Part shown: positions 1-11,068 of the stretch, piece by piece
Numbering within the stretch: the first letter of the stretch is position 1
Layout: every line of letters starts with the position of its first letter
IMG/VR virus record: IMGVR_UViG_2700989545_000014
Origin: a virus
Lineage: Duplodnaviria > Heunggongvirae > Uroviricota > Caudoviricetes
Length of the DNA stretch: 11,068 bases
Reading direction: 5' to 3' (one strand)
Program-made: the position numbers and the translations under genes
The notes under the pieces: generated by a model
The model's input: the letters and a program-made list of their open reading frames with translations, nothing else
Databases searched by the model: none
Told to the model about the DNA's origin: nothing

Positions 1-37
1 GATAAGAATAAAATCAAAGCAATAAGCAGTGTCGTGA

Positions 38-60
38 AACCACCTTCGGGTGGTTTTTTT
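38..60 (+). terminator. Rho-independent terminator (7-bp stem, UUCG tetraloop, T7 run)
   Basis: aaccacc-ttcg-ggtggtt at 38-55 followed by ttttttt to 60, read directly from the sequence. Which transcript it ends is unknown because the upstream gene is outside the window. Confidence 0.5.
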
Positions 61-145
61 GTATTTGTATTTTGTGCAATGGCGGTTGAGTGGCGATGGT
101 GTGGCGATATGCAGAAACAATGGTAGTGCACGTGCTGTTTAAACT

Positions 146-250
146 CTAAGGATGAAGCAGAATTCTTCTGCAGCTCCTCCGTATTTCGCATAGTGAACCA
201 GGACTTCTGTTAAACAAAAATTTTTCTGGGATTTTTCCACTCGACTTCAT
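146..250 (-). pseudogene. Degenerate hok/mok-like remnant (upstream leader frame fused to the Hok C-terminal motif, toxin N-terminus deleted)
   Basis: Minus-strand AGGAGG then ATG at 250 gives MKSSGKIPEKFLFNRSPGSLCEIRRSCRRILLHP*. The FLFNR-P segment matches the short frame upstream of the intact hok at 1178..1273 and GSLCEIR matches the Hok core. Relative to 1050..1420 about 130 bp covering the toxin transmembrane codons are absent and the frame shifts after SLCEIR. Confidence 0.35.
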
Positions 251-531
251 TTTTCCTCCTGCAATCCACCAACAGGTACCTGCGCTAATCTATCTTTTTA
301 ATCTGACAACATCTTGGGAAAAGGCAAATTCGTCAGATTTACTGTTTTTCTGCTGCCTCGAATGCCGATGTCTGAAGCACTGATAAGAGTTCTATCTCTT
401 TGATATAGATCTTTTTTTTGATGAATTGCACGACATATTATCGTTATGACACCTTCTTGTTAAAGGTATTGTACTCCTCATCTCGATTTTATGATGTGGG
501 CTATGATTGGTTAGTAATAGAGTGTATCGGT

Positions 532-813
532 ATGCGATGTGGTTTATTAATGGCAATCTGCCTTTGTTTAGTATCTTTTAGCGGATATGCAGCAACAGGA
601 AAGTCTGATGCTCAGATCAAAAAAGAAATAATTAAAGAATCCATTGAATCTTATCCAGGCAATTGTGCGTGTCCTTATAATCATGCAAGGAATGGTAGTA
701 GATGTGGTGGACGCAGTGCATATAGCCGTAATGGAGGGTATGACGTGGTATGTTATGAGGGTGATGTTACCGATGAAATGATCCGGCAATGGAAGCAGGA
801 GAATGCTGAGTAA
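532..813 (+). CDS. Small secreted Cys-rich protein of unknown function (93 aa with predicted signal peptide)
   Basis: The ORF track frame is 418..813. The signal-peptide-like segment MRCGLLMAICLCLVSFSGYA-ATGKSD (basic n-region, hydrophobic core, A-x-A site) begins at the ATG at 532, so 532 is the preferred start. The mature part has 5 Cys (GNCACPYNH...CGG...VVCYEG). The region is markedly AT-rich compared with the phage genes. The Shine-Dalgarno is weak (GAGTG). Confidence 0.5.
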   Translation: MRCGLLMAICLCLVSFSGYAATGKSDAQIKKEIIKESIESYPGNCACPYNHARNGSRCGGRSAYSRNGGYDVVCYEGDVTDEMIRQWKQENAE

Positions 814-879
814 TCTCTTTTAACAGGTTTGTTGTGCGAGCATTATGTGCCGTTAACGGTACACTAGCTAGTGATAGTT

Positions 880-922
880 CCAAAAAGAAAACCCGCAGTT
901 CTTACGCTGCGGGTTTGTTGTT
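880..922. terminator. Bidirectional rho-independent terminator
   Basis: Stem cccgcag (892-898) / ctgcggg (907-913) with an 8-nt loop. It is flanked by tttgttgtt on the plus strand and ttttcttttt on the minus strand, so it can end both the 532..813 gene and the minus-strand hok transcript. Confidence 0.6.
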
Positions 923-1001
923 CATGTCTGTGAGATAGGGTGCCACTTCAGCCAACCTTAGCAACCGATTGACGGGGGATTGCTCCCCCGTCGCGGTTTC
1001 C

Positions 1002-1142
1002 TTACTGCTTACACTGTAAGAACGCCGCAAACTCCGCTCCCCAGAAGCTCATCCGTATTTCACACAGCGAACCGTGTAGCATCCAGATGATGAGGATTAC
1101 CGTCACGCAGAACGTGATGGCCGTAAGCGATTTTTGCGACAT
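1002..1142 (-). CDS. hok: Hok/Gef-family type I toxin (46 aa membrane peptide)
   Basis: Hand translation of the minus strand gives MSQKSLTAITFCVTVILIIWMLHGSLCEIRMSFWGAEFAAFLQCKQ*. It has an N-terminal hydrophobic helix plus the conserved Hok core SLCEIR and the AAF(L) C-terminal motif seen in Hok, Gef, RelF, PndA and SrnB. AAGGAG lies 8 nt upstream of the ATG. It is absent from the ORF track because it is under 60 aa. Confidence 0.7.
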   Translation of the reverse strand: MSQKSLTAITFCVTVILIIWMLHGSLCEIRMSFWGAEFAAFLQCKQ

Positions 1143-1177
1143 AGCGCTTGCTCCTTTGTTGGAGAGGCGCTAACCTA

Positions 1178-1273
1178 TCACTTGCTTAAGGTAGATATGT
1201 TAGGGCCTCGGTTAAACAGAAATGTTTTCCGGGGCCTTTCCACATCTGGCCTTCGGGTATTCCCTCCGACCAT
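1178..1273 (-). CDS. Short upstream (mok-like) reading frame in the hok leader
   Basis: The 31-codon frame MVGGNTRRPDVERPRKTFLFNRGPNISTLSK* shares the FLFNR-P peptide with the remnant copy at 146..250. Unlike classical mok it stops about 35 nt before the hok start and has no clear Shine-Dalgarno, so its function is uncertain. Confidence 0.25.
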   Translation of the reverse strand: MVGGNTRRPDVERPRKTFLFNRGPNISTLSK

Positions 1274-1333
1274 CAGCCGAAAGGCACCCGCGCGTAATCT
1301 ATCGCTTTTTTGTTACTCCGGCAATTCTGCCTG

Positions 1334-1594
1334 TTAATTCTGAGGTAAAGGCAAACTCATCTGATTGTTTCCCCTGTGTGAAGCTGGCAGCTCATGCCAC
1401 GGGATACCTTCTGAAGAGTGAACGCCGGAGGTGTGTTTTGATGTGAATTTATGGAAAGCTTCCAGTGTTGAGAAGCATACGCCGCATTCCAGGTTGTTAC
1501 ACTGGTAATACTTTTGCCGCACGGTGTTTGAATCATTTTCAGGACGACTGGTGCGGATACGGGCAGATGCGCCACAAAGCGGACAACGGAACAT
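1334..1594 (-). CDS. ogr: Ogr/Delta-family zinc-finger late-gene transcriptional activator (86 aa ORF, C-terminus atypical)
   Basis: The N-terminus MFRCPLCGASARIRTSR...YYQCNNLEC has the CxxC...CxxxxC zinc-finger layout and matches P2 Ogr (MFHCPLC...). AAGGGAGG lies 5 nt upstream of the ATG at 1594. The ORF is longer than P2 Ogr (72 aa) and its last ~28 codons lie in DNA homologous to the hok-like repeat. Confidence 0.8.
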   Translation of the reverse strand: MFRCPLCGASARIRTSRPENDSNTVRQKYYQCNNLECGVCFSTLEAFHKFTSKHTSGVHSSEGIPWHELPASHRGNNQMSLPLPQN

Positions 1595-1636
1595 AGCGAC
1601 CTCCCTTAACGTGGTGCTGCTGCTATTCTAAGTTGC

Positions 1637-2746
1637 TCACTCTGTTTCTGCTATCCATTCCGAGATTTTTGCCTCAAGCTCAAGCTGCGTGGTAAAGCCG
1701 CTGTTATCGATGGTGTGCTCGGCTTTTGCAATAATCCAGTCCTGATTATCAATCTCGCTTTTAAATCCTGTTACCGTGCCATGCATTTCGGGGTAGAGTT
1801 CTGCACGACCACATGCCAGCGTGATGGAGAATGATGCGGCTCCGCGTTGTAGCTGCTGCCACTTTGCCGCCGCTGCGCGTCTTGCTGCCTGCTCGTTCTG
1901 ATAAGTCTTGCGTAACACAAACACATTGCCTTCCGCGCCTTCCATATAATCACCTTCACGGCTGCTGCTTTTCTCCTTTTTGGGTTTTGGCGGTTTACGG
2001 CGTTTCACGCTGACTTTTTTCTTTTTCCCGTAATTAAGATCAAGCCAGTAGGCGCGTACCCCCGTATACGCCTCGCGGTCAGCAATACGGAACTGATGGC
2101 GATCGCCGCTGCTGCGTGTAATGGCGAACGAGGGCAACGGCTGGCCCTGTGCGTTCACGCCACCACCTGGCATGATGAATAACAGATTGCCGCTTTTTAC
2201 CGTGGTGATTGCGCCCAGCATTTCCGCCATGCGCGTAAGGAAGGACATATCGCTTTCTTCGGTCTGGTCGGCGTGGTCGATTTCGATATCCATCAGCATT
2301 TCGCTGATTTGCGGTTTCAGACCGTACCGATGAGCGATGGCAGATACCACGCGCTCAACGGTCACATCATGCCAGGACACCTCACGTTTAACGTTAAATT
2401 CATCCCGAAAATCTGCGCTTCTGGCTGAAACAGTCAGCCTGTCCGGCGGTCCTTCGTGAGCGATTTCATCAACAATGTAAGTGCCTTTTTCTGTCAGCGG
2501 TTCTCCTTTCCAGCCAATGAGAACCGTCAGGCGCGCGCCCCGTGGCGGTAGCTGCAACTGACCATCCGCATCATCCAGCGTGATGGTGAGCTGGTCCGCC
2601 TCAAATCCCCGGTTGTCGGTCAGTGACAGGCTCATCAGGCGCTCTGCCACGCCTGACAGCGTTTTACCCTCCGCGAGAATATCAAAATCCGGCATTTTCA
2701 CGGGGTCTGTGCCCTGACTGAGCAATTGCATGGTGGTATCGGTCAT
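1637..2746 (-). CDS. D: P2 gpD-family tail protein (phage late control gene D protein)
   Basis: The 369-aa product contains SLSLTDNRGFEADQL...LTVLIGWKGEPL, typical of the gpD family. The start is placed at the ATG at 2746 (MTDTTMQLL), which is preceded by GGGAGGG; the track ORF extends to 2878 without a ribosome-binding site. Confidence 0.85.
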   Translation of the reverse strand: MTDTTMQLLSQGTDPVKMPDFDILAEGKTLSGVAERLMSLSLTDNRGFEADQLTITLDDADGQLQLPPRGARLTVLIGWKGEPLTEKGTYIVDEIAHEGPPDRLTVSARSADFRDEFNVKREVSWHDVTVERVVSAIAHRYGLKPQISEMLMDIEIDHADQTEESDMSFLTRMAEMLGAITTVKSGNLLFIMPGGGVNAQGQPLPSFAITRSSGDRHQFRIADREAYTGVRAYWLDLNYGKKKKVSVKRRKPPKPKKEKSSSREGDYMEGAEGNVFVLRKTYQNEQAARRAAAAKWQQLQRGAASFSITLACGRAELYPEMHGTVTGFKSEIDNQDWIIAKAEHTIDNSGFTTQLELEAKISEWIAETE

Positions 2747-2903
2747 CTGTTCCCTCCCTGTGCGGCATGGTCGCATGTGCGTGCGGAGGGGGTTACTGCT
2801 TTTTGTTGTCGCCGTGGCGGGAGAACGGCGCAGGGGTGAGATTACGCACGTGGTGGGTGATGATTGTTGCCGAATCATTTAACGGATACAAGGGGCTGAA
2901 GCT
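2747..2903. promoter_or_regulatory. Divergent intergenic region between D-ogr and the FI operon (expected late promoters)
   Basis: This 157-bp non-coding spacer lies between two divergent starts. By analogy with P2 the FI operon should have an Ogr-dependent promoter here, but no clean TGT-N12-ACA dyad was found by eye. Confidence 0.3.
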
Positions 2904-4088
2904 ATGAGTGAAACTCGTTTTCATGGTGCCCGTGTTACGGAAAATACCGACCTGGTAACAGCGATTAACGATGTTGATTCCAGCGTTATCGGTATCGTGG
3001 CAACGGCGGATGATGCGGACGCGAAGCTGTTCCCGCTGAATAAGCCCACACTGCTGACCCGCGTCAATGACGTGCTGGGAAAATGCGGGACAACGGGGAC
3101 GCTTTATCGTGCGCTTAAGGCCATCGCAGACCAGGTGAGCACAAAGGTGATCGTCGTTCGCGTGGCTGAACACAAAGAAGAAGACGGAAAGACGCAGGAT
3201 CAACTGGTTATCGGTGGTTCTGAGGATGACGGCAGCTATACGGGGATGTATGCGCTGCTTGTTGCAGAGCAGGATGAAAGCATCGGATACCGTCCGCGTA
3301 TTCTGGCCGCGCCGGAGCTGGACACGGAGGCTGTAACAAAATCCCTGTGCGTGATTGCAGGTAAACTGCGCGCGTTTGTGTATGCCTCATGTCACGGCTG
3401 TAACACGATGGCTGAGGCGATTACCTACCGCCAGAAATTCAACGAACGTGAGGTGATGCTCTTATGGCCGGACTTCATCGCCTACAACCCGAAAAGTGGC
3501 AAAAACGAAACGTTCCCCGCGCCTGCTTATGCGTGCGGCCTTCGTGCGTACATTGACCATGAGCAGGGCTGGCACAAATCGCTGTCCAACGTTCCGGTTA
3601 AAAATGTGCTGGGAATGTCCAGGCATGTGTTCTGGTCGTTGCAGGCCGAAGACAGCGATGCCAATAGCCTCAACAACAAAGAAATCACGACCATTATTCG
3701 TCGCAACGGGTTCCGCTTCTGGGGCAACCGCACACCGGAAACGAACGCCTACATCTTTGAGGTGTATACCCGAACCGCACAGGTGCTGGCTGATTCAATT
3801 GCGGAAGCGCAGTTTGAAACCATCGACAGTCCACTGACACCTGCGAATGTGAAGGATGTTATCAGCGCCATCAGGGCAAAACTGGATTCGCTGGTTACTG
3901 CCGGGAAACTGATTGGTGCGGAGTGCTGGTATGACGTGGTGGATAACGGCACCACGAATTTACGTCAGGGACGTGTGCGTATTCGCTACAAATATACGCC
4001 TGTTCCCCCGCTGGAAGACATGGAGCTTTACCAGACGTTTACTGATGAATTCTTTGGTCCCGCATTTGCGGTGCTGGGAGGTGCCTGA
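2904..4088 (+). CDS. FI: Contractile tail sheath protein (P2 gpFI family)
   Basis: The 394-aa product aligns by eye with P2 FI along its length (FPLNKP, KLRAF, AYRQ-F, WPDF, EQGWHK-LSNV, IRRNGFRFWGNRT, YTRTAQV, YTPVPPLE). AAGGGG lies 7 nt upstream of the ATG. Confidence 0.9.
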   Translation: MSETRFHGARVTENTDLVTAINDVDSSVIGIVATADDADAKLFPLNKPTLLTRVNDVLGKCGTTGTLYRALKAIADQVSTKVIVVRVAEHKEEDGKTQDQLVIGGSEDDGSYTGMYALLVAEQDESIGYRPRILAAPELDTEAVTKSLCVIAGKLRAFVYASCHGCNTMAEAITYRQKFNEREVMLLWPDFIAYNPKSGKNETFPAPAYACGLRAYIDHEQGWHKSLSNVPVKNVLGMSRHVFWSLQAEDSDANSLNNKEITTIIRRNGFRFWGNRTPETNAYIFEVYTRTAQVLADSIAEAQFETIDSPLTPANVKDVISAIRAKLDSLVTAGKLIGAECWYDVVDNGTTNLRQGRVRIRYKYTPVPPLEDMELYQTFTDEFFGPAFAVLGGA

Positions 4089-4600
4089 TGGCTGTACCAA
4101 AACATCTTCGCTTTTTTACGTTGTTTGTGGATGGTGAAAACGAAGTGGGTAAAGTGACATCCGTCACGCCGCCCAAACTGACGCGCAAAACCGACAGCTA
4201 TCGTGGTGGTGGCATGATGGGGGCGGTAAGTATTGATCTCGGTCTGGACGACTCCGCGCTTGATGCGAGTTTTGTCATGGGGGGAGCTGTTCGTGCGCTG
4301 TTCCTTAAATATGGCGGCACGATTGACGGCACGCTGCTGCGTTTTGCGGGTGAATACTACACCGATGCAGAAAGCGATCTGTATGAAATCGAGATGCGCG
4401 GGCGTGTGACGGAAATTGATATGGGGGAAGCCAAACAGGGCGAAGCCACATCACACACTTACGCTGTCAAAAACACCTACTACAAGCTGAGCGTTAACGA
4501 TCGCCCGCTGTGGGAAATCGACCTGTTGAACCACATCTACCGGAAGGACGGCAAGGACATTGTGCCTGACCGTATCCGTTCCGCGCTTGGGCTTGGCTGA
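4088..4600 (+). CDS. FII: Tail tube protein (P2 gpFII family)
   Basis: The 170-aa product carries VTPPKLTRKTDSYRGGGM, the LGLDD motif and MRGR-EID-GE-KQGE, matching P2 FII. Its start overlaps the FI stop (ATGA), indicating translational coupling. Confidence 0.9.
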   Translation: MAVPKHLRFFTLFVDGENEVGKVTSVTPPKLTRKTDSYRGGGMMGAVSIDLGLDDSALDASFVMGGAVRALFLKYGGTIDGTLLRFAGEYYTDAESDLYEIEMRGRVTEIDMGEAKQGEATSHTYAVKNTYYKLSVNDRPLWEIDLLNHIYRKDGKDIVPDRIRSALGLG

Positions 4601-4612
4601 TAAGTAATATGC

Positions 4613-4633
4613 AGGCGGCGCAGTGCGTCGCCT
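4613..4633 (+). other. Intergenic GC-rich hairpin between tube and chaperone genes (possible attenuator or RNA-processing site)
   Basis: An 8-bp stem aggcggcg / cgtcgcct with a 5-nt loop, followed by only two T residues, so it is not a strong terminator. Confidence 0.25.
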
Positions 4634-4655
4634 TTGACTGAAAAGGAGACAACTG

Positions 4656-5030
4656 ATGAAAGACATCGATACTGAAACCCGGAATAACACCGTGGCGGAT
4701 GATGTGACGGCAGGTGAGGATATGGCTGTCGAACGTGGCGTAAAACTGACCCGACCAATTGAGCGTGGTGGCGAAAAAATCACGTATGTGGAGATCACCG
4801 GGGCTATTGAGCAGGCTGGATCCCTGCGTGGTCTGTCGCTGTCTGATGTGCTGAATCTGAAAGCGGATACCATGTTTACGCTGTTGCCTCGCGTGACCTC
4901 GCCACGACTGGATGAAGTGATGATTAAAAAAATGTCGTCACGCGATTTTATTCAGTTGTGCGCAGTGGCTGTAAATTTTATGAGCGAGCCAGACTCTGGC
5001 GCGAAGAGCGTGCAGGAGACGGCAGCGTAA
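4656..5030 (+). CDS. E: Tail assembly chaperone gpE
   Basis: The 124-aa ORF has AAGGAG 7 nt upstream and sits between the tube and tape-measure genes, where P2 and lambda (G/GT) carry the chaperone pair. A slippery heptamer lies near its 3' end. Confidence 0.8.
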   Translation: MKDIDTETRNNTVADDVTAGEDMAVERGVKLTRPIERGGEKITYVEITGAIEQAGSLRGLSLSDVLNLKADTMFTLLPRVTSPRLDEVMIKKMSSRDFIQLCAVAVNFMSEPDSGAKSVQETAA

Positions 5031-5194
5031 TCACTCTGGTGTGCTTTGAGCACATCGAAGATCTGGTGGCGGATATTGCCGCCATTTTTAACTGGTCGCC
5101 CGCCGAAATCTTCATGATGACGCCCGGCGAAGTGGTTAGCTGGCGTGAGCGGGCGGCACTTCGCAGCGGGAATGCAGATAATGAAGACTCTTGA
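4656..5194 (+). CDS. E+E': gpE+E' chaperone fusion produced by programmed -1 ribosomal frameshift
   Basis: The -1 frame (track ORF 4958..5194) overlaps the end of E. A canonical X_XXY_YYZ heptamer A_AAT_TTT lies at 4973-4979 in the E zero frame, and slipping there continues as ...CKFYERA... in the E' frame. The arrangement is conserved in contractile-tail phages. Confidence 0.6.
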
Positions 5195-7988
5195 TATCCG
5201 GGTCGCTTTCAGCGCCGTTGACAGGCTGACCCGGCCTGCCGAAAACGCCCGCCGCCTGATGGGGCAGTTTGGTGACTCCATCCAGCGAACGCAGGGGGCG
5301 ATCAAAAATCTCGAGCGTCAGGCGCGTTCATTTGAGCGCGCCCGTGACGCTGTCAGTAAAGCGGATGCTGGCATCGTGAAAGCACGACGCCAGCTTAACG
5401 CCCTTAATCAGTTACAACGCACGGGTACAGTGCTCAGCGAAAAACAACAAAAGCTGATGCAGCAGTTAAGCACCCGGCTTGAACGCCTGAATGAATCGCG
5501 CACACGGGAAATTCAGAAAATGCGGGAGCTTGGCGGAGAGCTGAAACGCCACGGCATTTCCCTGACAGGCAGCGATAACACCATCCAGCAGGCCATCAGA
5601 CGCACCGAACAGTACAACAACCAGCTTGAACGCGAACGGCAGGCGCTTGCGCGTGTAACGCGGGCGCGTGAGCGGTATTCGCGCGCGCAGGAAACCGCGG
5701 GAAAACTGAAAACAGGTGGTGCGCTGGCAATTGGTGCTGCAGCGGCTGGCGGCTATGCCGCCGGGCGTTTTTTGCAGCCTGCGATCGGGTTCGGCAAAGA
5801 GATGTCCCGCGTTCAGGCACTGACGCGAATCGACAAAAACAGCCCGCAGTTTAAGGCGCTGCGTGAGCAGGCGTTAAAACTTGGTTCTGAAACACAGTTT
5901 ACTGCGAGTGATGCCGCCAGTGGGCAGAGCTTTCTGGCAATGGCTGGTTTTACTCCGCAGGCCATTCAGGCCGCATTGCCCGGTGTTCTTAATATGGCGC
6001 TGGCAGGTGGCGTCGAACTCGGCGAGACGGCTGATATAGGCTCCAATATCCTCACACAGTTCAACCTGACAGCCGATCAAATGGACCGGGTTGGCGATAC
6101 GCTGACAGCAGCATTCACCCGGACCAATACTGATTTACGCGCGCTGGGCGAAACCATGAAGTATACCGGTCCGGTTGCCGCAAAACTTGGTATCAGTCTT
6201 GAAGAAGCGGCGGCCATGGCCGGGATGCTTGCCAATAATGGTCTTCGCGGAAGCGATGCTGGTACGGCCATGCGCGCAAGTCTGTCCCGCCTTGCATCAC
6301 CGCCAAAAGCTGCGGCTGATGCACTGAAAGAGCTGGGGGTGTCAGTTGCTGACGCCAGAGGCAAAATGCGCCCGATGGAGGATGTGCTGCTTGATCTCTA
6401 TAAGGCGACACAAAAATACGGACAGGTGGACCAGGTCTCCTTCTTCAAGGACATCGCCGGAGAAGAGGCGTTCGTTGGTTTGCAGACGCTTGTTGCGGCG
6501 GCTGGTTCAGGAGAACTGCAAAAACTGACCAGAGAATTGCAGGGGGCAAGGGGAGAGGCCGATCGCGTTGCAAAAGTAATGGCCGATAATCTTGATGGAG
6601 ACCTGAAAAATCTCGACAGCGCATGGGAAGGTCTTCGTATTCGCATCAGTGATCTGGTTGACGGTCCGCTGCGTTCTGTCACGCAGTGGCTCACGCGGGT
6701 GCTTGAAAAAATCACCTCGCTGGCGCAGGCCCATCCGGTACTGACGCGCCAGCTACTGATAGCAGGCGGTGCGTTGCTGGCAATGACTGCAACGATTGGC
6801 TCGTTGTCGCTGGTTATTGGGGTGCTTTACGGGAAGCTGGCCACCTTGCGTCTTGGTTTCGACATTCTTACCCGGTCAATGAATGTCATCAGGGTGTTGC
6901 CTGCGCTGTGGGGAATGGTGACGGGTTCTGTTTCTTTGCTGGGTGGCGCTATCGGGGCGCTGTTCAGTCCGGTTGGTCTTATCGTGGCTGCGCTTGCCGG
7001 AGCTGCCGTTCTTATCTGGAAATACTGGGATCCCATCAGGGCATTTTTTGCCGGGGTGTTCAGCGGGATTATGGAAAGGCTGACCCCGTTGCGTGAAACC
7101 TTTGAACGGTTTGGCCCTGTTTTTGACGCAATCGGAAGCGGGATCAGCCTGGTGTTTAACTGGTTTAAATCGCTGTTGTCACCGATGGAGTCCAGCAAGG
7201 AAACGCTGGATAAATGCACCAGTGCTGGCGAGGTATTCGGTAACGTTCTTGGCGGTGCGTTACAACTTGTTCTGACACCTGCAAAAATGCTACTGGATAC
7301 GCTGGCGTGGATACTTGAAAAACTTGGTGTCCTTCCGGATGAAGCGGAAAGGGCGCGCAAGAAAATCGAAGACGCACAGCGTGCGGCCATTCTTCAGGAC
7401 AAGGTTGCCTTGCTTCAGGGGGACCTGGCGAAAATCAATCCGCCGAAGCCTGTGGAAAATGGCAATGGCACCGGAGGTGATAAACCCAAAGACAACAAAC
7501 CGCTCACAGACAGCAATACCGGGACGCTACGCAGACTCAGCAAAATTGCTGATAACACAGGTAAGCTGGTTGATGAGACGAAAAAACGCATTGGCCCCGG
7601 CGATATTGTCTTTAAGAACCTGCCCCGCGCACTTGCTGTTCGTGGGGAGTGGCAGGAGCGGAAGATTGCGCAGGTCAGTAAGCCTGCCCCCGCAATTAAT
7701 ATCACACCCGTGGTCTCGGCTCCGCTGCCTCCGGCGCTGGTCCCTGTTGTTGCGGCCAGCTCCCGCCCGGTGGCGGAGGCCATACGATCGCCAGTGGCAT
7801 CAGTTCCTGCAACTTCCCGTAACCGGGAGCCTGCTGTCTCCGGATTTTGCGGTGAAATTCATGTTCATCTGCATAACGTTGTTACGCAGAATCCCCGCGA
7901 ACTGGCGAAACTGGTCGGTGAAATGGTCAGGGCAGAGATGGAACGGCGCGCCCGTGCCGGACGTGGCAGTTTTTACGATAAAGATTGA
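5181..7988 (+). CDS. T: Tail tape measure protein (P2 gpT family), about 935 aa
   Basis: A long ORF directly after the chaperone pair. It has a coiled-coil-like, Q/R/E-rich N-terminal third, internal hydrophobic segments and a Pro/Ala-rich C-terminal region. The start is placed at the ATG at 5181 (GGGA 9 nt upstream); the track frame opens at GTG 5145 inside E'. Confidence 0.85.
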   Translation: MKTLDIRVAFSAVDRLTRPAENARRLMGQFGDSIQRTQGAIKNLERQARSFERARDAVSKADAGIVKARRQLNALNQLQRTGTVLSEKQQKLMQQLSTRLERLNESRTREIQKMRELGGELKRHGISLTGSDNTIQQAIRRTEQYNNQLERERQALARVTRARERYSRAQETAGKLKTGGALAIGAAAAGGYAAGRFLQPAIGFGKEMSRVQALTRIDKNSPQFKALREQALKLGSETQFTASDAASGQSFLAMAGFTPQAIQAALPGVLNMALAGGVELGETADIGSNILTQFNLTADQMDRVGDTLTAAFTRTNTDLRALGETMKYTGPVAAKLGISLEEAAAMAGMLANNGLRGSDAGTAMRASLSRLASPPKAAADALKELGVSVADARGKMRPMEDVLLDLYKATQKYGQVDQVSFFKDIAGEEAFVGLQTLVAAAGSGELQKLTRELQGARGEADRVAKVMADNLDGDLKNLDSAWEGLRIRISDLVDGPLRSVTQWLTRVLEKITSLAQAHPVLTRQLLIAGGALLAMTATIGSLSLVIGVLYGKLATLRLGFDILTRSMNVIRVLPALWGMVTGSVSLLGGAIGALFSPVGLIVAALAGAAVLIWKYWDPIRAFFAGVFSGIMERLTPLRETFERFGPVFDAIGSGISLVFNWFKSLLSPMESSKETLDKCTSAGEVFGNVLGGALQLVLTPAKMLLDTLAWILEKLGVLPDEAERARKKIEDAQRAAILQDKVALLQGDLAKINPPKPVENGNGTGGDKPKDNKPLTDSNTGTLRRLSKIADNTGKLVDETKKRIGPGDIVFKNLPRALAVRGEWQERKIAQVSKPAPAINITPVVSAPLPPALVPVVAASSRPVAEAIRSPVASVPATSRNREPAVSGFCGEIHVHLHNVVTQNPRELAKLVGEMVRAEMERRARAGRGSFYDKD

Positions 7989-7994
7989 GGAGTC

Positions 7995-8489
7995 ATGGTC
8001 ATGATGATGATCTACGGCATGTTTGTTTTTGAGCTGCGCACATTGCCGCATCAGCAGTTACAGCAAAACAAAAGCTGGCGGCATGTGAAAAATGAACGCG
8101 TTAACCGTTCAGCAAGCTGGCAGTATATCGGTGCAGGTGATGATCGCATTGTGCTTTCCGGCGTGCTTTATCCTGAAATTACAGGTGGCGAAGTGTCGCT
8201 TTCATTGCTGACCACGCAGGCATATACAGGACGGCCCTGGCCTCTGATTGATGGTGTCGGGCAGATTTACGGCATGTATGTACTGACTGAAACGAATACG
8301 ACCCGTTCCGAGTTTGATCGCTACGGTAAGGCGAAAAAGATAGAATTTTCACTGACTCTTGAACGCTGTGATGAGGATTTGCGGGAGCGCCTGCAATCCT
8401 CATCGTTCAGCGATATGTTGTCCGGCTTCAAAGATAAGGTGACATCATCCCTTAATAGCGCGGCCAGCTCAGTTAAGGGGCTGCTCTGA
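7995..8489 (+). CDS. U: Tail protein gpU (P2 U family)
   Basis: The N-terminus ...MMMIYGMFVFELRTLPHQQLQ... and the LSG-L-PE-TGG, WPL-DG-G and SEF motifs match P2 gpU (MMMVLGLFVF...). Shine-Dalgarno spacing favours the ATG at 8001 over 7995. Confidence 0.85.
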   Translation: MVMMMIYGMFVFELRTLPHQQLQQNKSWRHVKNERVNRSASWQYIGAGDDRIVLSGVLYPEITGGEVSLSLLTTQAYTGRPWPLIDGVGQIYGMYVLTETNTTRSEFDRYGKAKKIEFSLTLERCDEDLRERLQSSSFSDMLSGFKDKVTSSLNSAASSVKGLL

Positions 8490-8499
8490 TTTAACGTAT

Positions 8500-8532
8500 G
8501 TCGCCAATTTCCTGATGAAGGTGACTGGCGAC
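8500..8532 (+). terminator. Weak hairpin downstream of U (possible end of the tail operon)
   Basis: gtcgcca (8500-8506) pairs with tggcgac (8526-8532) across a large loop and is followed by moderately T-rich sequence. Structure only. Confidence 0.2.
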
Positions 8533-8565
8533 TTGCTGTTGTATGTCCTTCTCAGAAAATTGTTT

Positions 8566-8594
8566 TTGAATAATAAACAACAGGATTTTATAAT
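8566..8594 (+). promoter_or_regulatory. Near-consensus sigma70 promoter for the cargo gene
   Basis: TTGAAT (8566-8571), a 17-bp spacer, then TATAAT (8589-8594). The predicted transcription start near 8601 is followed by AAGGAG at 8634-8639. Confidence 0.5.
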
Positions 8595-8645
8595 CTCTTA
8601 ACCTTATAACATGTGTGGTCTGAAATAATAATTAAGGAGATTATC

Positions 8646-9218
8646 GTGCTGTCTTACCTAATGGCAATTCACTTTGTTTTATTTGGGAACTCTACTAATT
8701 TAAAAAACTTCTGGAAACATGAAGTAATTCGGCGGAAACGTATGGATATCTGGAGGCTTTTAAGAGAGAAAAAGCAGCGTAACAGGAATTTCCTTTTCTG
8801 GTGGCGGTTGGCTAACGAAATGTATATTAATGGTAATAAATTACATAAGAAAGCAGCCAAGAAGTTAAACAGTAAAATAATTAACAAATTTGGTTGCGAA
8901 ATTGGATTGGGCGCAAATATTGGAAAAGGGTTAACAATTCCCCATCATGCTGGAATTGTTGTTCATTTTGCTGTTGATGCTGGTGAAAATCTGGTGTTAC
9001 GACAGAATACGACCATTGGACAGATAGATGGTGACATACCTGGTTCAAGAGTAAAAATTGGTAGCAACGTTGATATCGGAGCTAATTGTTGCATCATTGG
9101 ATTATCCCGTAAAATTGGGGATAATGTAAAAATAGGTGCAATGTCTTTTATAAATAAAGATATACCATCGAACTGCACATATATAACTAAAAAGAGCGGT
9201 GCTGTATTGTATAAATAG
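8646..9218 (+). CDS. Hexapeptide-repeat (left-handed beta-helix) O-acetyltransferase of the CysE/WcaB/NodL type, prophage cargo (moron) gene
   Basis: The C-terminal two-thirds shows imperfect hexapeptide repeats (GCEIGLGANIGKGLTIPHHAGIVV...VKIGSNVDIGANCCIIG...IGDNVKIGAMSFI) resembling serine and polysaccharide O-acetyltransferases. The start is placed at GTG 8646, 6 nt after AAGGAG; the track frame opens at 8613. The gene is far more AT-rich than the flanking phage genes. Confidence 0.7.
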   Translation: MLSYLMAIHFVLFGNSTNLKNFWKHEVIRRKRMDIWRLLREKKQRNRNFLFWWRLANEMYINGNKLHKKAAKKLNSKIINKFGCEIGLGANIGKGLTIPHHAGIVVHFAVDAGENLVLRQNTTIGQIDGDIPGSRVKIGSNVDIGANCCIIGLSRKIGDNVKIGAMSFINKDIPSNCTYITKKSGAVLYK

Positions 9219-9226
9219 AGTACATA

Positions 9227-9263
9227 AAGCCATCGATATTTCTATCGATGGCTTTTTCTTTTT
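9227..9263. terminator. Strong rho-independent terminator after the cargo gene
   Basis: A 12-bp stem aagccatcgata / tatcgatggctt with loop tttc is followed by tttttcttttt on the plus strand. The tfa stop codon lies at the edge of this element. Confidence 0.7.
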
Positions 9264-9840
9264 ATTGTGGGGCGACTGGCCACTCAATATCTGCTGCTAC
9301 TGTTGTATCAACACGATGCAACAATACTCGATATGTCTTCCATGCAGCCAGTAACGATGTCTCTTCCTCCGTCGCAATATCTAAATCTATAGCATCCTGA
9401 AGTGGTGCAATATGCTCACTGGCTACCTGCATCAGGCTGTTTTTTGTTTCTTCCGCCTCCCTTATCCGAAATAGTTTTTCTGCTTCTGCATCTTTCACCC
9501 AGGATGTGCCGTTCCACTTCTGATACTCTCCATACGGCGACAACCAGGTAACATTTTCCGGTAACGGACCGAGTTCAGAAATAAATAACGAGTCCCCTGA
9601 TGCCACGTCATAAACCGTTTTACCCCGATGGTCTTCAACGAGATGCCACGATGCCTCATCACTGTTGAAAACGGCCACGAAGCCAGCCGGAATATCTGGC
9701 GGGGCAATATCGGTACTGTTTGCAGGCAGACCTGTATGAGGTGAAATGTATGCATCACCTTCACCAATAAACTCATTGGTTCCGGTCAGTAGATTATAAA
9801 TTTTTATGGTCCGTGATTGTTCACTCATTCTGAATGTCAT
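9262..9840 (-). CDS. tfa: Tail fibre assembly protein (lambda Tfa / P2 gpG family)
   Basis: The 192-aa product ([18 protein letters not shown]...[20 protein letters not shown]...) closely resembles, from memory, the TfaR/TfaQ-type chaperones of E. coli lambdoid prophages. Its ATG overlaps the stop of the upstream fibre segment (TAATG). Confidence 0.9.
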
Positions 9841-10226
9841 TATGCAAGCCTCACAATATAGTTAAATGCGATGTTTTTTACGGTGTTTTCTGCGTTCCCC
9901 GTAGCATTAACGGTGATGGTGTGTCCGTGGGGACCAATAATGACAGAATGGGCATGAGCACCAATGCCGATAGTGTGGTTATGGGCACCGATATATACAT
10001 TGTGAGCATGCTCTCCTGCGCTCGACGTGGTACCAGTACCTAACGCAGCGTTATAACCGGCTGATACACCATTCCCCGCGCCAGTGTGACCAACAGGTAT
10101 ATTGTGTGAATGAGCTCCTGCGCTATTTGTGGTTTTTGTGCCGTAATCAAATGAACTGGTCGTTTTAGTACCGTAATCAAACGACGGCCCGGCCACTGGC
10201 GGGTTTGCCCTTAATCGTCCAGCCAC
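9840..10226 (-). CDS. stf: Side tail fibre, distal receptor-binding segment with HxH repeats (out of frame with the upstream fibre ORF)
   Basis: The 128-aa frame contains GAHSH...[37 protein letters not shown]...[11 protein letters not shown], an HxH-rich fibre tip, and a tandem FDYGTKTT repeat. It is translationally coupled to tfa. The frame opens only about 4 codons upstream of the GTG at 10226, so it is not an independent gene extending upstream. Confidence 0.6.
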
Positions 10227-11068
10227 GCATATCAGGGATCACGCCTGACGGATAAGCGGCTGCAAGTTTCGGGTAGGCAGATTTGTCAAAAGTCTGCCCC
10301 TGCATCAGGGCATAACCAGACGGAACGGTATCCGATGGCCACGGGATTGGTGCGCCAGGCGGATAAAACTGCTCTGATGGCGTATAGAGTGAATAAACTG
10401 TACCGTCCGTTAACCCTTCCGGCTTATTAGCAGAATATGCTGGTGACGTATGAATCGTCACGCTGGCATTACTGGTATAATCCCATTGAATATTTACACC
10501 AGTCGCATAATTTCCGATTGCAACGTAAATATCGTAAGTATCACCAGATGTATTGACCCAGGCAAAATTTGTAAACCCTGTCGATGTGCGCTGCCATAAA
10601 GCACCAGTAATCCCCTTCGGATTACCATTACCTGCACGCAAAACAAGTTCAGATATACCTGCCTGTTGAGGTGAACCGACGTTAAATCCAGCGCCACCAA
10701 TCAACGTAATTGAAACAACAGAACTCGCCTGTGGCATGGTTACCGTTGCTAATTTGAACCAACCAGCACCACCGCTGAATGACATTGTTGTTGAGTTAAG
10801 CGTACCAATATCTTTCGGCGTCAGTGTTATATCCGCCGAAAGCGCCTTACCATTCACCTTACGGGCAGAAGGTACCCGACCATTCGCATTGTCATTAGCT
10901 GCTTTCACTGCTTTCGGTGTTGCAGCAAGCGTTTCAGATGTGCTGTTGGTTGCACTACTGAGCTGGACAATTCCTTTTTGTGCCGTCGTGGCGTCCTGTG
11001 CGGTATATTTCCCGTTAGCAAGGTCATAGGCTGCCTTTACCGCCTTTGGTGTTGCCGCCAGCGTTTCT
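10177..11068 (-). CDS. stf: Side tail fibre, shaft portion (5'-partial; continues beyond the window edge)
   Basis: The frame is open from the window edge to the TGA at 10177. It carries the repeated fibre motif [14 protein letters not shown] twice (hand translation of 10900..11068) and a Gly/Thr/Ser/Asn-rich shaft, as shared by lambda Stf, P2 H and Mu/P1 S. The track start at 10908 is an internal GTG. Confidence 0.7.

What the first reader, a model, noticed from the sequence alone, without database searches (positions are those of the whole stretch)
8566..9263. Self-contained AT-rich moron encoding a hexapeptide O-acetyltransferase beside the tail fibre genes: candidate lysogenic-conversion module
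A complete expression cassette (near-consensus -35/-10 with 17-bp spacer, AAGGAG, GTG start, strong terminator) is inserted between U and tfa, with base composition far more AT-rich than the tail genes. The product belongs to the CysE/WcaB-like left-handed beta-helix acetyltransferases. Phage-borne members of this family are known to O-acetylate surface polysaccharides and so change serotype and phage receptor availability. Its position next to the receptor-binding genes, where P2 carries its Z/fun conversion gene, suggests it modifies the host receptor to exclude superinfection or alter antigenicity. The substrate is not evident from sequence.
Basis: partly seen in the sequence, partly recalled or inferred. 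Interest (0 to 1): 0.72.

Follow-up and report, generated by a model that had tools for sequence, protein, structure and literature searches.

The report
Prophage acetyltransferase gene beside tail fibres
A P2-like prophage of E. coli carries, next to its tail-fibre genes, a self-contained AT-rich gene for an acetyltransferase that databases wrongly call a serine acetyltransferase; it most likely acetylates a cell-surface sugar, but its target has never been tested.

Summary
Window 8545-9265 is a 35% G+C single-gene cassette. It has a promoter-like site, an AAGGAG/GTG start, a 190-codon ORF (8646-9218) and a strong hairpin terminator. It lies between tail gene U and the convergent tail-fibre assembly gene, which is the slot where P2 carries fun(Z).

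The product has the fold of serine acetyltransferases (helical N-domain plus left-handed beta-helix) and keeps their catalytic His and acidic partner. It lacks the serine-binding residues, the CysK-binding tail and the family score cut-offs, so the database name "serine acetyltransferase" is a misnomer.

The gene belongs to a discrete family (PHROG 2154, unknown function) that evolves under purifying selection. It is present in about 10% of complete E. coli genomes. It usually sits convergent with a fibre-assembly gene in unrelated phage backbones, and is shared with a P1-like phage as one block together with the fibre tip.

In four other lineages the family sits next to glycosyltransferase-like genes, and a GT9 gene fills the same slot in sister prophages. 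This supports glycan, probably LPS, acetylation as lysogenic conversion, but only by association.

The family also occurs away from fibres, on conjugative plasmids and at prophage ends. I found no functional study. I rate it a new member of a known kind, of moderate interest.

The parts
8500..8545 (+). Hairpin (GTCGCCA...TGGCGAC) and U-rich tail downstream of gene U: probable terminator of the FI-U late operon and left border of the cassette.
   Evidence: Fold of 8486-8560 gives -22.3 kcal/mol, z = -3.7. The hairpin is retained in the two GT9-bearing sister prophages, and homology to them ends just after it; the empty-slot sister diverges earlier, just after the U stop codon.
8545..9261 (+). 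AT-rich accessory cassette (moron), about 0.72 kb.
   Evidence: 34.8% G+C against 46-56% in the flanking tail genes. Homology to sister prophages breaks at 8496-8544, and homology to K-12-type tfa genes starts at 9269-9278.
8566..8594 (+). Sigma-70-type promoter-like site: TTGAAT, 17 nt, TATAAT.
   Evidence: 10 of 12 consensus positions. The same sequence is present upstream of a 70%-identical allele in L063. Not statistically enriched over shuffles, and not tested experimentally.
8634..8639 (+). Shine-Dalgarno sequence AAGGAG, six bases before the start codon.
   Evidence: Read directly from the sequence.
8646..9218 (+). CDS, 190 aa, GTG start, TAG stop: serine-acetyltransferase-like LbetaH acetyltransferase (PHROG 2154). 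Predicted catalytic His100 and Glu85.
   Evidence: NCBIfam EpsC, cysE and WcaB hits all fall below their cut-offs. PHROG 2154, E 3e-86. PDB serine acetyltransferases, E 1e-12. AlphaFold2 pLDDT 96.4. Foldseek TM 0.70-0.75 to serine acetyltransferases. H100 is at least 90% conserved. dN/dS 0.03-0.26.
9226..9265 (+). Intrinsic terminator: perfect 13-bp stem, 4-nt loop, T-run. Shared with the convergent tfa gene.
   Evidence: -18.8 kcal/mol on the + strand and -19.5 on the - strand, z about -6.3 to -6.7.
9262..9840 (-). Tail-fibre assembly gene (tfa), convergent with the acetyltransferase gene; part of the same exchanged block.
   Evidence: Caudo_TAP, E 1e-40. Window 8654-10810 is 91-93% identical to P1-like phage JL22 as one near-contiguous block, two collinear pieces broken only by the window's deletion at 10186/10187. 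The 43-nt gap between the acetyltransferase ORF and the convergent tfa ORF is constant in most E. coli-type loci.
9840..10810 (-). C-terminal (receptor-binding) part of the tail-fibre gene, shared with JL22 in the same block. In this window it is interrupted by an 86-bp deletion at 10186/10187.
   Evidence: Collar domain, E 7e-13. Block homology. Deletion and frameshift relative to 55989 and JL22.

Best explanation
The cassette is an independently transcribed accessory gene (moron) in the fun(Z)-equivalent slot of a P2-like prophage.

It encodes a soluble, cytoplasmic, acetyl-CoA-dependent acetyltransferase with the architecture of serine acetyltransferases: a helical N-domain followed by a left-handed beta-helix, presumably trimeric. 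His100 would act as general base, with Glu85 as its partner. It is not a serine acetyltransferase.

The most likely job is O-acetylation of a sugar on an envelope-glycan precursor at the cytoplasmic face of the inner membrane. Candidate acceptors are LPS core, a lipid-linked O-unit, or another conserved glycan. The lysogen would then display an altered surface, which would reduce adsorption of phages with related fibres (superinfection exclusion) and could change antigenicity.

Shown here: the cassette anatomy, the fold, the conserved catalytic pair, loss of the serine-binding residues, purifying selection, the synteny and the block shared with a P1-like phage.
Inferred: expression in the lysogen, the acetyl donor, the acceptor and the phenotype.
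For: Anatomy: promoter-like site, SD/GTG start, terminator, low G+C, and empty or alternative slots in sister prophages.

Enzyme:
- High-confidence model (pLDDT 96.4). All 50 top PDB neighbours are serine acetyltransferases, TM 0.61-0.75.
- The catalytic His and the acidic partner align with those of CysE and are conserved across the family.
- dN/dS is 0.03-0.26 and the ORF is full length in nearly all of 99 family loci; the few short calls are diverged or contig-truncated loci.

Not CysE:
- The Asp of the DH motif is Pro99 here, and the Arg-His loop is absent. Every cysK- or cysS-type relative in the alignment has all five signature residues.
- Scores are 61 against a cut-off of 211, and 36 against 397.

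Glycan link:
- The best family models are EPS-locus EpsC and colanic-acid WcaB.
- Neighbours of the closest outgroup genes are rich in glycosyltransferases (13 GT1, 10 GT4, 9 GT2).
- Family members sit beside GT25 in a Xenorhabdus prophage and a Pseudomonas islet, beside HtrL/YibB, and beside a phage glycosyltransferase, phrog_1962.
- A GT9 (heptosyltransferase-family) gene fills the same slot in 49 E. coli genomes.
- All these cargo genes have 31-39% G+C.

Receptor link:
- The gene is convergent with tfa, 0-53 nt away, in 76 of 99 family loci, and likewise in P1-like JL22, phiNP and, more distantly, Hafnia phage yong2.
- It is shared with JL22 in a 2.16-kb block that includes tfa and the fibre tip.

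Precedent: prophage-borne LbetaH NeuO acetylates the K1 capsule and lowers susceptibility to K1 phage (PMC3046976, PMC13001214).
Against: - There is no direct evidence for any acceptor, and I found no functional study. Authors who annotated the gene say its role is unknown (PMC9603915; PMC6456863).
- Hosts have many different O-antigens (O157:H7, O55:H7 and strain 55989, which from my own knowledge is O104:H4). An O-unit-specific enzyme is therefore hard to reconcile, and a conserved acceptor has to be assumed.
- The family also occurs away from fibres: on I-complex and F plasmids, at a prophage end next to hok, next to an integrase, and in chromosomal islets. Fibre adjacency may partly reflect a general cargo hotspot, which is what the literature reports for this locus (bioRxiv 10.1101/2024.10.15.618418).
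- The GT9-bearing sister prophage has a tfa 86.6% identical to the one here, so cargo does not track fibre type strictly.
- The promoter match is not above chance for AT-rich DNA.
Confidence: 0.5

Rival explanations
1. It is an intracellular accessory enzyme unrelated to the cell surface. It would acetylate a small molecule or a protein, for example to detoxify a metabolite or antibiotic, or it would act as an anti-phage defence inside the cell, as other cargo of P2 hotspots does.
For: The Z/fun slot and other P2 hotspots are known reservoirs of defence genes (PMC9122126, PMC13586616 and bioRxiv 10.1101/2024.10.15.618418). The family is a general cargo gene of mobile elements, found beside toxin-antitoxin and hok genes on plasmids and at prophage ends. 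Other LbetaH enzymes acetylate small molecules; NCBIfam gives weak hits to maltose and galactoside acetyltransferases.
Against: No PADLOC model matches. The repeated pairing with glycosyltransferases and the GT9 alternative in the same slot point to glycans. The closest non-CysE relatives lie in polysaccharide loci.
Confidence: 0.25
2. It is a genuine serine O-acetyltransferase (CysE), an auxiliary metabolic gene that boosts cysteine synthesis, as its database name says.
For: RefSeq and phage records name it serine (O-)acetyltransferase. The closest solved structures are serine acetyltransferases.
Against: Scores lie far below the equivalog cut-offs: 61.1 against 210.65, and 36.1 against 397. 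The serine-binding Asp and the Arg-His loop are missing in this protein (Pro99, Ser-Arg) and are not conserved in the family, yet present in all cysK- or cysS-type relatives in the alignment. The N-domain is about 80 aa rather than about 140, and the protein ends right after the beta-helix with no CysK-binding tail. It has no linkage to cys genes.
Confidence: 0.03
3. It serves the phage itself, for example by modifying the fibre, the assembly protein or the receptor on lysing cells. In that case it is a late function rather than a lysogenic-conversion gene.
For: It lies co-oriented downstream of the FI-U late operon, so read-through is possible. It is tightly linked to tfa and the fibre tip.
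Against: Sister prophages with the same tail genes lack it or carry GT9 instead. It also occurs on conjugative plasmids and in islets that have no tail genes. A hairpin terminator separates it from U. Here it is intact while the fibre gene is frameshifted.
Confidence: 0.07
4. It is a decaying, non-functional passenger.
For: The prophage in this window shows decay: an 86-bp frameshifting deletion in the fibre gene.
Against: dN/dS is 0.03-0.26 across alleles up to dS 1.9. The ORF is full length in nearly all family loci, and catalytic residues are conserved.
Confidence: 0.03

Closest known systems
NeuO, the polysialate O-acetyltransferase of the E. coli K1 prophage CUS-3
   Same: A prophage cargo gene encoding a soluble LbetaH, acetyl-CoA-dependent O-acetyltransferase with a catalytic His. 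It modifies the glycan used as phage receptor and reduces susceptibility to related phages (PMC3046976, PMC13001214).
   Different: NeuO belongs to the MAT/GAT-like LbetaH subclass, with a His/Trp active site and no serine-acetyltransferase-type helical N-domain. The window protein's 50 top PDB neighbours are all serine acetyltransferases, and it has no Trp in the beta-helix. NeuO is phase-variable through a 5' heptanucleotide repeat; no repeat exists here. NeuO's acceptor is known; this protein's is not.
CysE serine O-acetyltransferase
   Same: Same overall fold (helical N-domain plus LbetaH), and the aligned catalytic His and acidic partner.
   Different: Lacks the serine-binding Asp and the Arg-His loop, has a much shorter N-domain, has no C-terminal CysK-binding tail, scores far below the equivalog cut-offs, and has no cys-gene context.
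WcaB (colanic acid) and EpsC-type acetyltransferases of polysaccharide loci
   Same: Short serine-acetyltransferase-like LbetaH enzymes of 160-190 aa without serine-binding residues. These are the best-scoring family models (EpsC 74.8 bits, WcaB 52-53 bits). Relatives lie among glycosyltransferase genes.
   Different: Scores lie well below the cut-offs (150 and 195). The gene is carried on mobile elements as a single-gene cassette, not inside a polysaccharide gene cluster.
P2 fun(Z) and other cargo of the Z/fun hotspot
   Same: Same slot: immediately after the fibre-assembly gene and convergent with it, non-essential, with its own signals. The hotspot is known to mix fibre swapping with accessory cargo.
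   Different: No sequence similarity to Fun(Z) (E 6.4). In this prophage the FI-U block is inverted, so the slot is bordered by U rather than FI.
Oac and GtrC serotype-converting O-antigen acetyltransferases (Sf6, P22-like phages, BTP1)
   Same: Phage-borne acetylation of a surface glycan that blocks superinfection, often encoded near tail genes (PMC7556043, PMC7067206).
   Different: Those are integral-membrane acyltransferase-3 proteins that act at the periplasmic side. This protein is a soluble LbetaH enzyme with no match to that family.

Membership tests
Left-handed beta-helix (hexapeptide-repeat) acyltransferase superfamily | Hexapeptide repeats folding into an LbetaH domain | tested here: met
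   Pfam Hexapep alone falls below its cut-off (23.9 against 27 bits). However, the AlphaFold2 model (pLDDT 96.4) shows short strands spaced at regular intervals through residues 110-179, as expected for beta-helix coils. Foldseek matches LbetaH serine acetyltransferases at E 3e-9, TM 0.70-0.75. phmmer finds PDB serine acetyltransferases at E 1e-12.
Left-handed beta-helix (hexapeptide-repeat) acyltransferase superfamily | Catalytic histidine | tested here: met
   His100 aligns with the CysE catalytic His in the DH motif and is at least 90% conserved in 108 homologues. An acidic residue (Glu85, or Asp) aligns with the CysE dyad Asp.
Left-handed beta-helix (hexapeptide-repeat) acyltransferase superfamily | Trimeric assembly and use of acetyl-CoA | not testable with these tools
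   Only a monomer was modelled. Needs biochemistry or a multimer model with ligand.
Serine O-acetyltransferase CysE | Score at or above the curated equivalog cut-off | tested here: not met
   TIGR01172: 61.1 against 210.65 bits. PRK11132: 36.1 against 397 bits.
Serine O-acetyltransferase CysE | Serine/cysteine-binding residues: the Asp of the DH motif and the Arg-His of the GDRHPKI loop (E. coli D157, R192, H193; numbering from my own knowledge) | tested here: not met
   Pro99 replaces the Asp. The loop has no Arg-His pair and is variable in the family. All three solved CysE/SAT sequences and all 11 cysK- or cysS-type relatives in the alignment have the full signature (neighbour families).
Serine O-acetyltransferase CysE | Long N-terminal helical domain and C-terminal tail that binds CysK | tested here: not met
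   The helical domain spans residues 2-82 only. The protein ends at residue 190, right after the last coil (...GAVLYK). CysE chains in the PDB are 240-310 aa.
WcaB / EpsC polysaccharide-locus acetyltransferases | Score at or above the equivalog cut-off, and location in the wca or EPS cluster | tested here: not met
   WcaB 52-53 bits against about 195. EpsC 74.8 bits against 150. The gene is in a prophage, not a polysaccharide cluster.
NeuO-type phage polysialate O-acetyltransferase | MAT/GAT-like LbetaH with a His/Trp active site, and a 5' heptanucleotide repeat for phase variation | tested here: not met
   No NeuO entry is named among the 50 best PDB neighbours, all of which are serine acetyltransferases. 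There is no Trp after residue 53. There are no tandem or direct repeats. Defining features taken from PMC3046976.
Moron (independently transcribed accessory cassette in a phage genome) | Inserted between genes that are adjacent in related phages | tested here: met
   Sister prophage L090 has U followed directly by the tfa region. L089 and L091 carry a GT9 gene instead.
Moron (independently transcribed accessory cassette in a phage genome) | Own promoter and terminator, and deviant base composition | tested here: met
   Promoter-like site matching 10 of 12 positions, strong terminator, 35% against 46-56% G+C. The promoter match alone is not above chance.
Moron (independently transcribed accessory cassette in a phage genome) | Expressed from the repressed prophage | not testable with these tools
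   Needs RNA-seq, 5' RACE or a reporter in a lysogen.
Known anti-phage defence systems (PADLOC-DB) | Match to a defence-system protein model | tested here: not met
   No PADLOC family at E up to 0.1.
Acyltransferase-3 O-antigen acetylases (Oac/GtrC) | Integral-membrane acyltransferase-3 domain | tested here: not met
   No such Pfam match. The model is a soluble helical bundle plus beta-helix.

The most novel reading that the evidence does not exclude
The family (PHROG 2154) is a receptor-masking enzyme that O-acetylates a conserved LPS sugar at the cytoplasmic face. It is exchanged together with the fibre tip and its assembly protein as one cassette that pairs an adhesin with an enzyme masking that adhesin's receptor, moving between P2-like, P1-like and other myoviruses. 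Conjugative I-complex plasmids carry the same family. Their thin-pilus PilV adhesins also bind LPS (my own knowledge, not checked here), which would make it a general self-exclusion device for mobile elements that dock on LPS.
Probability: 0.2. Interest if true: 0.7.

Novelty: new member of a known kind. Interest (0 to 1): 0.45.

Why it matters
- About one in ten complete E. coli genomes carries this cassette, including O157:H7, O55:H7 and strain 55989. Related alleles sit on P1-like phage-plasmids and on many conjugative plasmids.
- The gene is annotated everywhere as a cysteine-biosynthesis enzyme, which the sequence contradicts.
- If it acetylates LPS or another envelope glycan, it would change phage and tailocin sensitivity, serological typing and possibly immune recognition of pathogenic strains. 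It would also show that a fibre tip and an enzyme masking that fibre's receptor can move between phages as one unit.
- Correcting the name prevents false inference of auxiliary sulphur metabolism in phage and plasmid surveys.

Tried and rejected
- A first AlphaFold2 run with a 30-sequence alignment gave pLDDT about 50-60 in the beta-helix and weak Foldseek matches. A 108-sequence alignment fixed this.
- Pfam alone does not reach its gathering cut-off for Hexapep.
- PADLOC gave no hit, and PHROGs gave only a family of unknown function.
- The promoter scan is not enriched over shuffles, so I do not treat the promoter as established.
- I first thought the cargo type co-varies with the tfa/fibre type. 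One search rejected this: the GT9-bearing sister prophage has a tfa 86.6% identical to the one here.
- I first thought the family was strictly fibre-linked. This was also rejected.
- The genome-contig scan returned mostly outgroup serine-acetyltransferase-like genes and only about a dozen true family members. I used it to define the score gap (at least 187 against at most 133 bits) and the CysE signature test.
- Ten literature searches found no functional study of this protein.
- Rfam found only IS009 inside tfa and nothing in the cassette.
- I found no similarity to P2 Fun(Z) and no repeats that could give phase variation.
- A cross-tabulation of gene presence against LPS core type could not be done, because the genome search returns counts and top rows only.
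Full report
**What is there**

The window is the right arm of a P2-like prophage that ends next to a tRNA-Leu gene. Window 1-10010 is 99.5% identical, without gaps, to E. coli 55989. The gene order is:
- a small Cys-rich ORF (annotated CDS 532-813 +; the mechanical ORF runs 418-813);
- hok/gef (1002-1142, -);
- ogr (1334-1594, -);
- D (1637 to about 2746, -);
- FI, FII, E, T and U (2904-8489, +);
- the gene in question (8646-9218, +);
- tfa (9262-9840, -);
- the tail-fibre gene (from 9840, -).

The stated elements are all present. The promoter-like site TTGAAT-17-TATAAT lies at 8566-8594. AAGGAG lies at 8634-8639, six bases before GTG 8646. The stop codon is TAG 9216-9218. A perfect 13-bp hairpin with a T-run lies at 9226-9265 (-18.8 kcal/mol, z = -6.3).

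G+C is 35.6% in the CDS, against 49% in U, 46% in tfa and 56% in T.

A second hairpin directly after U (8500-8535; -22.3 kcal/mol for 8486-8560, z = -3.7) is retained in the two GT9-bearing sister prophages. It probably ends the late FI-U operon.

The promoter-like match is not statistically above what AT-rich DNA gives (5 found, 3.5 +/- 2.0 expected). However, the same sequence precedes a 70%-identical allele in L063.

**It is an insertion in a known hotspot**

Prophages whose FI-U genes are 91-98% identical lose homology at about 8496-8544. Homology to K-12-type tfa genes starts at 9269-9278.

In those sister prophages the slot is empty (L090) or holds a glycosyltransferase family 9 gene with 33% G+C (L089, L091). 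The GT9 version occurs in 49 of the 5,426 E. coli genomes in the collection, and the acetyltransferase cassette in 510-530.

In phage P2 the non-essential gene fun(Z) lies immediately after G (tfa) and convergent with it. The cassette is therefore in the equivalent slot. The difference is that the FI-U block is inverted here, so U rather than FI borders the slot. The literature describes this locus as a mixed-purpose hotspot in which fibre and tfa genes are swapped and other cargo is carried (bioRxiv 10.1101/2024.10.15.618418). The protein is unrelated to Fun(Z).

**What the protein is**

NCBIfam places it nearest to EPS-locus EpsC (74.8 bits, cut-off 150), cysE (61.1, cut-off 210.65) and colanic-acid WcaB (52-53, cut-off about 195). 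It therefore falls within that clade but belongs to none of those families. It matches PHROG 2154 (E 3e-86), a family of unknown function, and no PADLOC defence model.

With a 108-sequence alignment, AlphaFold2 gives pLDDT 96.4. The model has five helices (residues 2-82) followed by short, regularly spaced strands through residues 110-179. The 50 best PDB neighbours are all serine acetyltransferases, with TM 0.61-0.75.

In alignments to solved CysE proteins, His100 matches the catalytic His and Glu85 matches the dyad Asp. Both are conserved in the family.

The residues that bind serine or cysteine in CysE are not conserved. The Asp of the DH motif is Pro99, and the Arg-His loop is replaced by a variable loop. 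By contrast, all three solved CysE/SAT sequences and all 11 cysK- or cysS-type relatives in the alignment have all five signature residues. The protein also lacks the long N-domain and the C-terminal tail of CysE. The database name "serine acetyltransferase" is therefore a misnomer.

Alleles differ with dN/dS of 0.03-0.26, and the ORF is full length in nearly all of 99 family loci, so the protein is under selection.

**Where the family lives**

A profile of the family separates members (at least 187 bits) from all other serine-acetyltransferase-like genes (at most 133 bits).

Fibre-adjacent sites:
- In 76 of 99 family loci a tfa gene lies convergent, 0-53 nt downstream.
- The same arrangement occurs in unrelated backbones: P1-like JL22, Citrobacter phage phiNP and an Orbaceae prophage. 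The more distant homologue in Hafnia phage yong2 shows it too.
- Window 8654-10810 (acetyltransferase gene, tfa and the C-terminal 1 kb of the fibre gene) is a single block 91-93% identical to JL22 (two collinear pieces, broken only by the window's deletion at 10186/10187), while the promoter region differs. Fibre tip, assembly protein and acetyltransferase are thus shared between a P2-like and a P1-like phage as one block.

Sites away from fibres:
- 487 plasmid records, 265 of them conjugative. The records inspected include I-complex plasmids (IncI-gamma/K1, IncK2/Z), where the gene lies between a toxin-antitoxin pair and a ProQ/FinO gene.
- The end of another prophage, beside hok.
- Beside an integrase in Salmonella.
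- Small chromosomal islets.

Fibre adjacency is therefore the commonest context but not an obligatory one.

**Evidence on function**

All of it is indirect.
1. The best-scoring family models come from polysaccharide loci. The neighbours of the closest outgroup genes are rich in glycosyltransferases and sugar-modifying enzymes, apart from the true cysE genes, which sit by cysK or cysS.
2. In four independent lineages a family member sits beside a glycosyltransferase-like gene:
   - GT25 in a Xenorhabdus prophage and in a Pseudomonas islet;
   - HtrL/YibB, a gene that in E. coli lies in the LPS core (waa) region (my own knowledge);
   - a phage glycosyltransferase, phrog_1962.
3. A GT9 gene, from the family of LPS heptosyltransferases, is the alternative occupant of the very same slot.
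4. All these cargo genes have low G+C (31-39%). Polysaccharide genes in enterobacteria are typically AT-rich too (my own knowledge).
5. There is a characterised precedent. Prophage CUS-3 carries the LbetaH enzyme NeuO, which acetylates the K1 capsule and lowers susceptibility to K1 phage (PMC3046976, PMC13001214).

**Most likely mechanism**

The enzyme is soluble, so it must act on a cytoplasmic intermediate: a nucleotide sugar, a lipid-linked unit, or lipid A-core before export. Its E. coli hosts have many different O-antigens, so a conserved acceptor such as an LPS core sugar is the most economical guess.

Fibres of the P2, P1 and Mu type are known to bind LPS core (my own knowledge). That would make the enzyme a receptor-masking function. 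This chain is inference, and I give it 0.5.

**Rivals**
- An intracellular role in defence or small-molecule acetylation (0.25). It fits the hotspot literature and the non-fibre contexts, but not the glycosyltransferase associations.
- A true CysE (0.03). The signature and score tests reject it.
- A phage-assembly role (0.07). This is unlikely because sister phages lack the gene and plasmids carry it.
- A decaying passenger (0.03). Purifying selection contradicts it.

**Literature**

The gene has been noticed but never studied. The JL22 paper states that the reason for its presence is unknown (PMC9603915). The Citrobacter rodentium prophage paper lists the phiNP copy as a possible fitness factor (PMC6456863). 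The surveys of P2 hotspots do not mention it.

**Verdict**

The cassette is best filed as an uncharacterised member of a known kind: a phage-borne acetyltransferase moron near receptor-binding genes.

Three additions come from this work:
- the database name is wrong;
- the gene is shared with the fibre tip and tfa as one block;
- the same slot and the same family are repeatedly tied to LPS-type glycosyltransferases.

Noticed in passing
window 10186/10187 (tail-fibre gene, - strand; ORFs 9840-10226 and 10177-10908): The fibre gene lacks 86 bp that are present in both E. coli 55989 and P1-like phage JL22. This shifts the frame, so the fibre is split over two frames in this window. The prophage may be unable to make fibres while the acetyltransferase gene stays intact. 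A sequencing or assembly error is not excluded.
   Followed up: partly
window 1637-8489 compared with P2 (L172): The FI-FII-E-T-U block is inverted relative to P2. D and ogr are left as a separate, divergently transcribed unit, and D starts only about 160 bp from FI. In P2, FI to D form one operon.
   Followed up: partly
window 1-1142: The left end is a second AT-rich accessory region (37-41% G+C) between ogr and the tRNA-Leu attachment site. It holds a small Cys-rich ORF (annotated CDS 532-813; the mechanical ORF starts at 418; phrog_27544, unknown function) and a hok/gef toxin gene (1002-1142, -).
   Followed up: partly
window 9299-9497 (- strand): There is an Rfam IS009 match (177 bits, above the gathering score) inside the tfa coding sequence. 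It probably reflects conserved tfa sequence in cryptic prophages rather than a separate RNA gene.
   Followed up: no
L173, L174, L175 (conjugative plasmids IncI-gamma/K1 and IncK2/Z); L176 (IncF): Homologues 52-56% identical lie on hundreds of plasmids (487 records, 265 conjugative). In the I-complex plasmids inspected they sit just after a toxin-antitoxin pair near the replication gene, followed in L173 and L175 by a ProQ/FinO gene. These plasmids make thin pili whose PilV adhesins bind LPS (my own knowledge), a possible parallel to LPS-binding fibres.
   Followed up: partly
L089 5487-6665 and L091 5487-6665 (sister prophages); 49 E. coli genomes: The same slot holds a 392-aa glycosyltransferase family 9 gene (33% G+C, phrog_36326, unknown function) next to a tfa 86.6% identical to the one in the window. 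It is an uncharacterised candidate LPS-core-modifying moron.
   Followed up: partly
L045 5203-6105; L068 613-882; L070 1942-2208; L102 3618-3890: One variant has a Macro-domain protein gene inserted beside a truncated tfa downstream of the acetyltransferase gene. In three other lineages a small 88-90-aa protein (phrog_20491, unknown function) directly precedes the acetyltransferase gene and may be a co-transcribed partner or regulator.
   Followed up: no
L074-L078 (IMG/VR contigs): Here the order is fibre, tfa, a 151-aa protein (phrog_1128, enoyl-CoA hydratase-like), the acetyltransferase and a glycosyltransferase (phrog_1962), all on one strand. This is a possible multi-gene glycan-modification module downstream of the fibre genes.
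   Followed up: partly
RefSeq and GenBank annotation of window 8646-9218 and its homologues: The product name "serine (O-)acetyltransferase" (sacF, sat) has spread through E. coli genomes, phage records and plasmids, although the serine-binding residues are absent. One paper discussed it as a cysteine-biosynthesis enzyme.
   Followed up: yes
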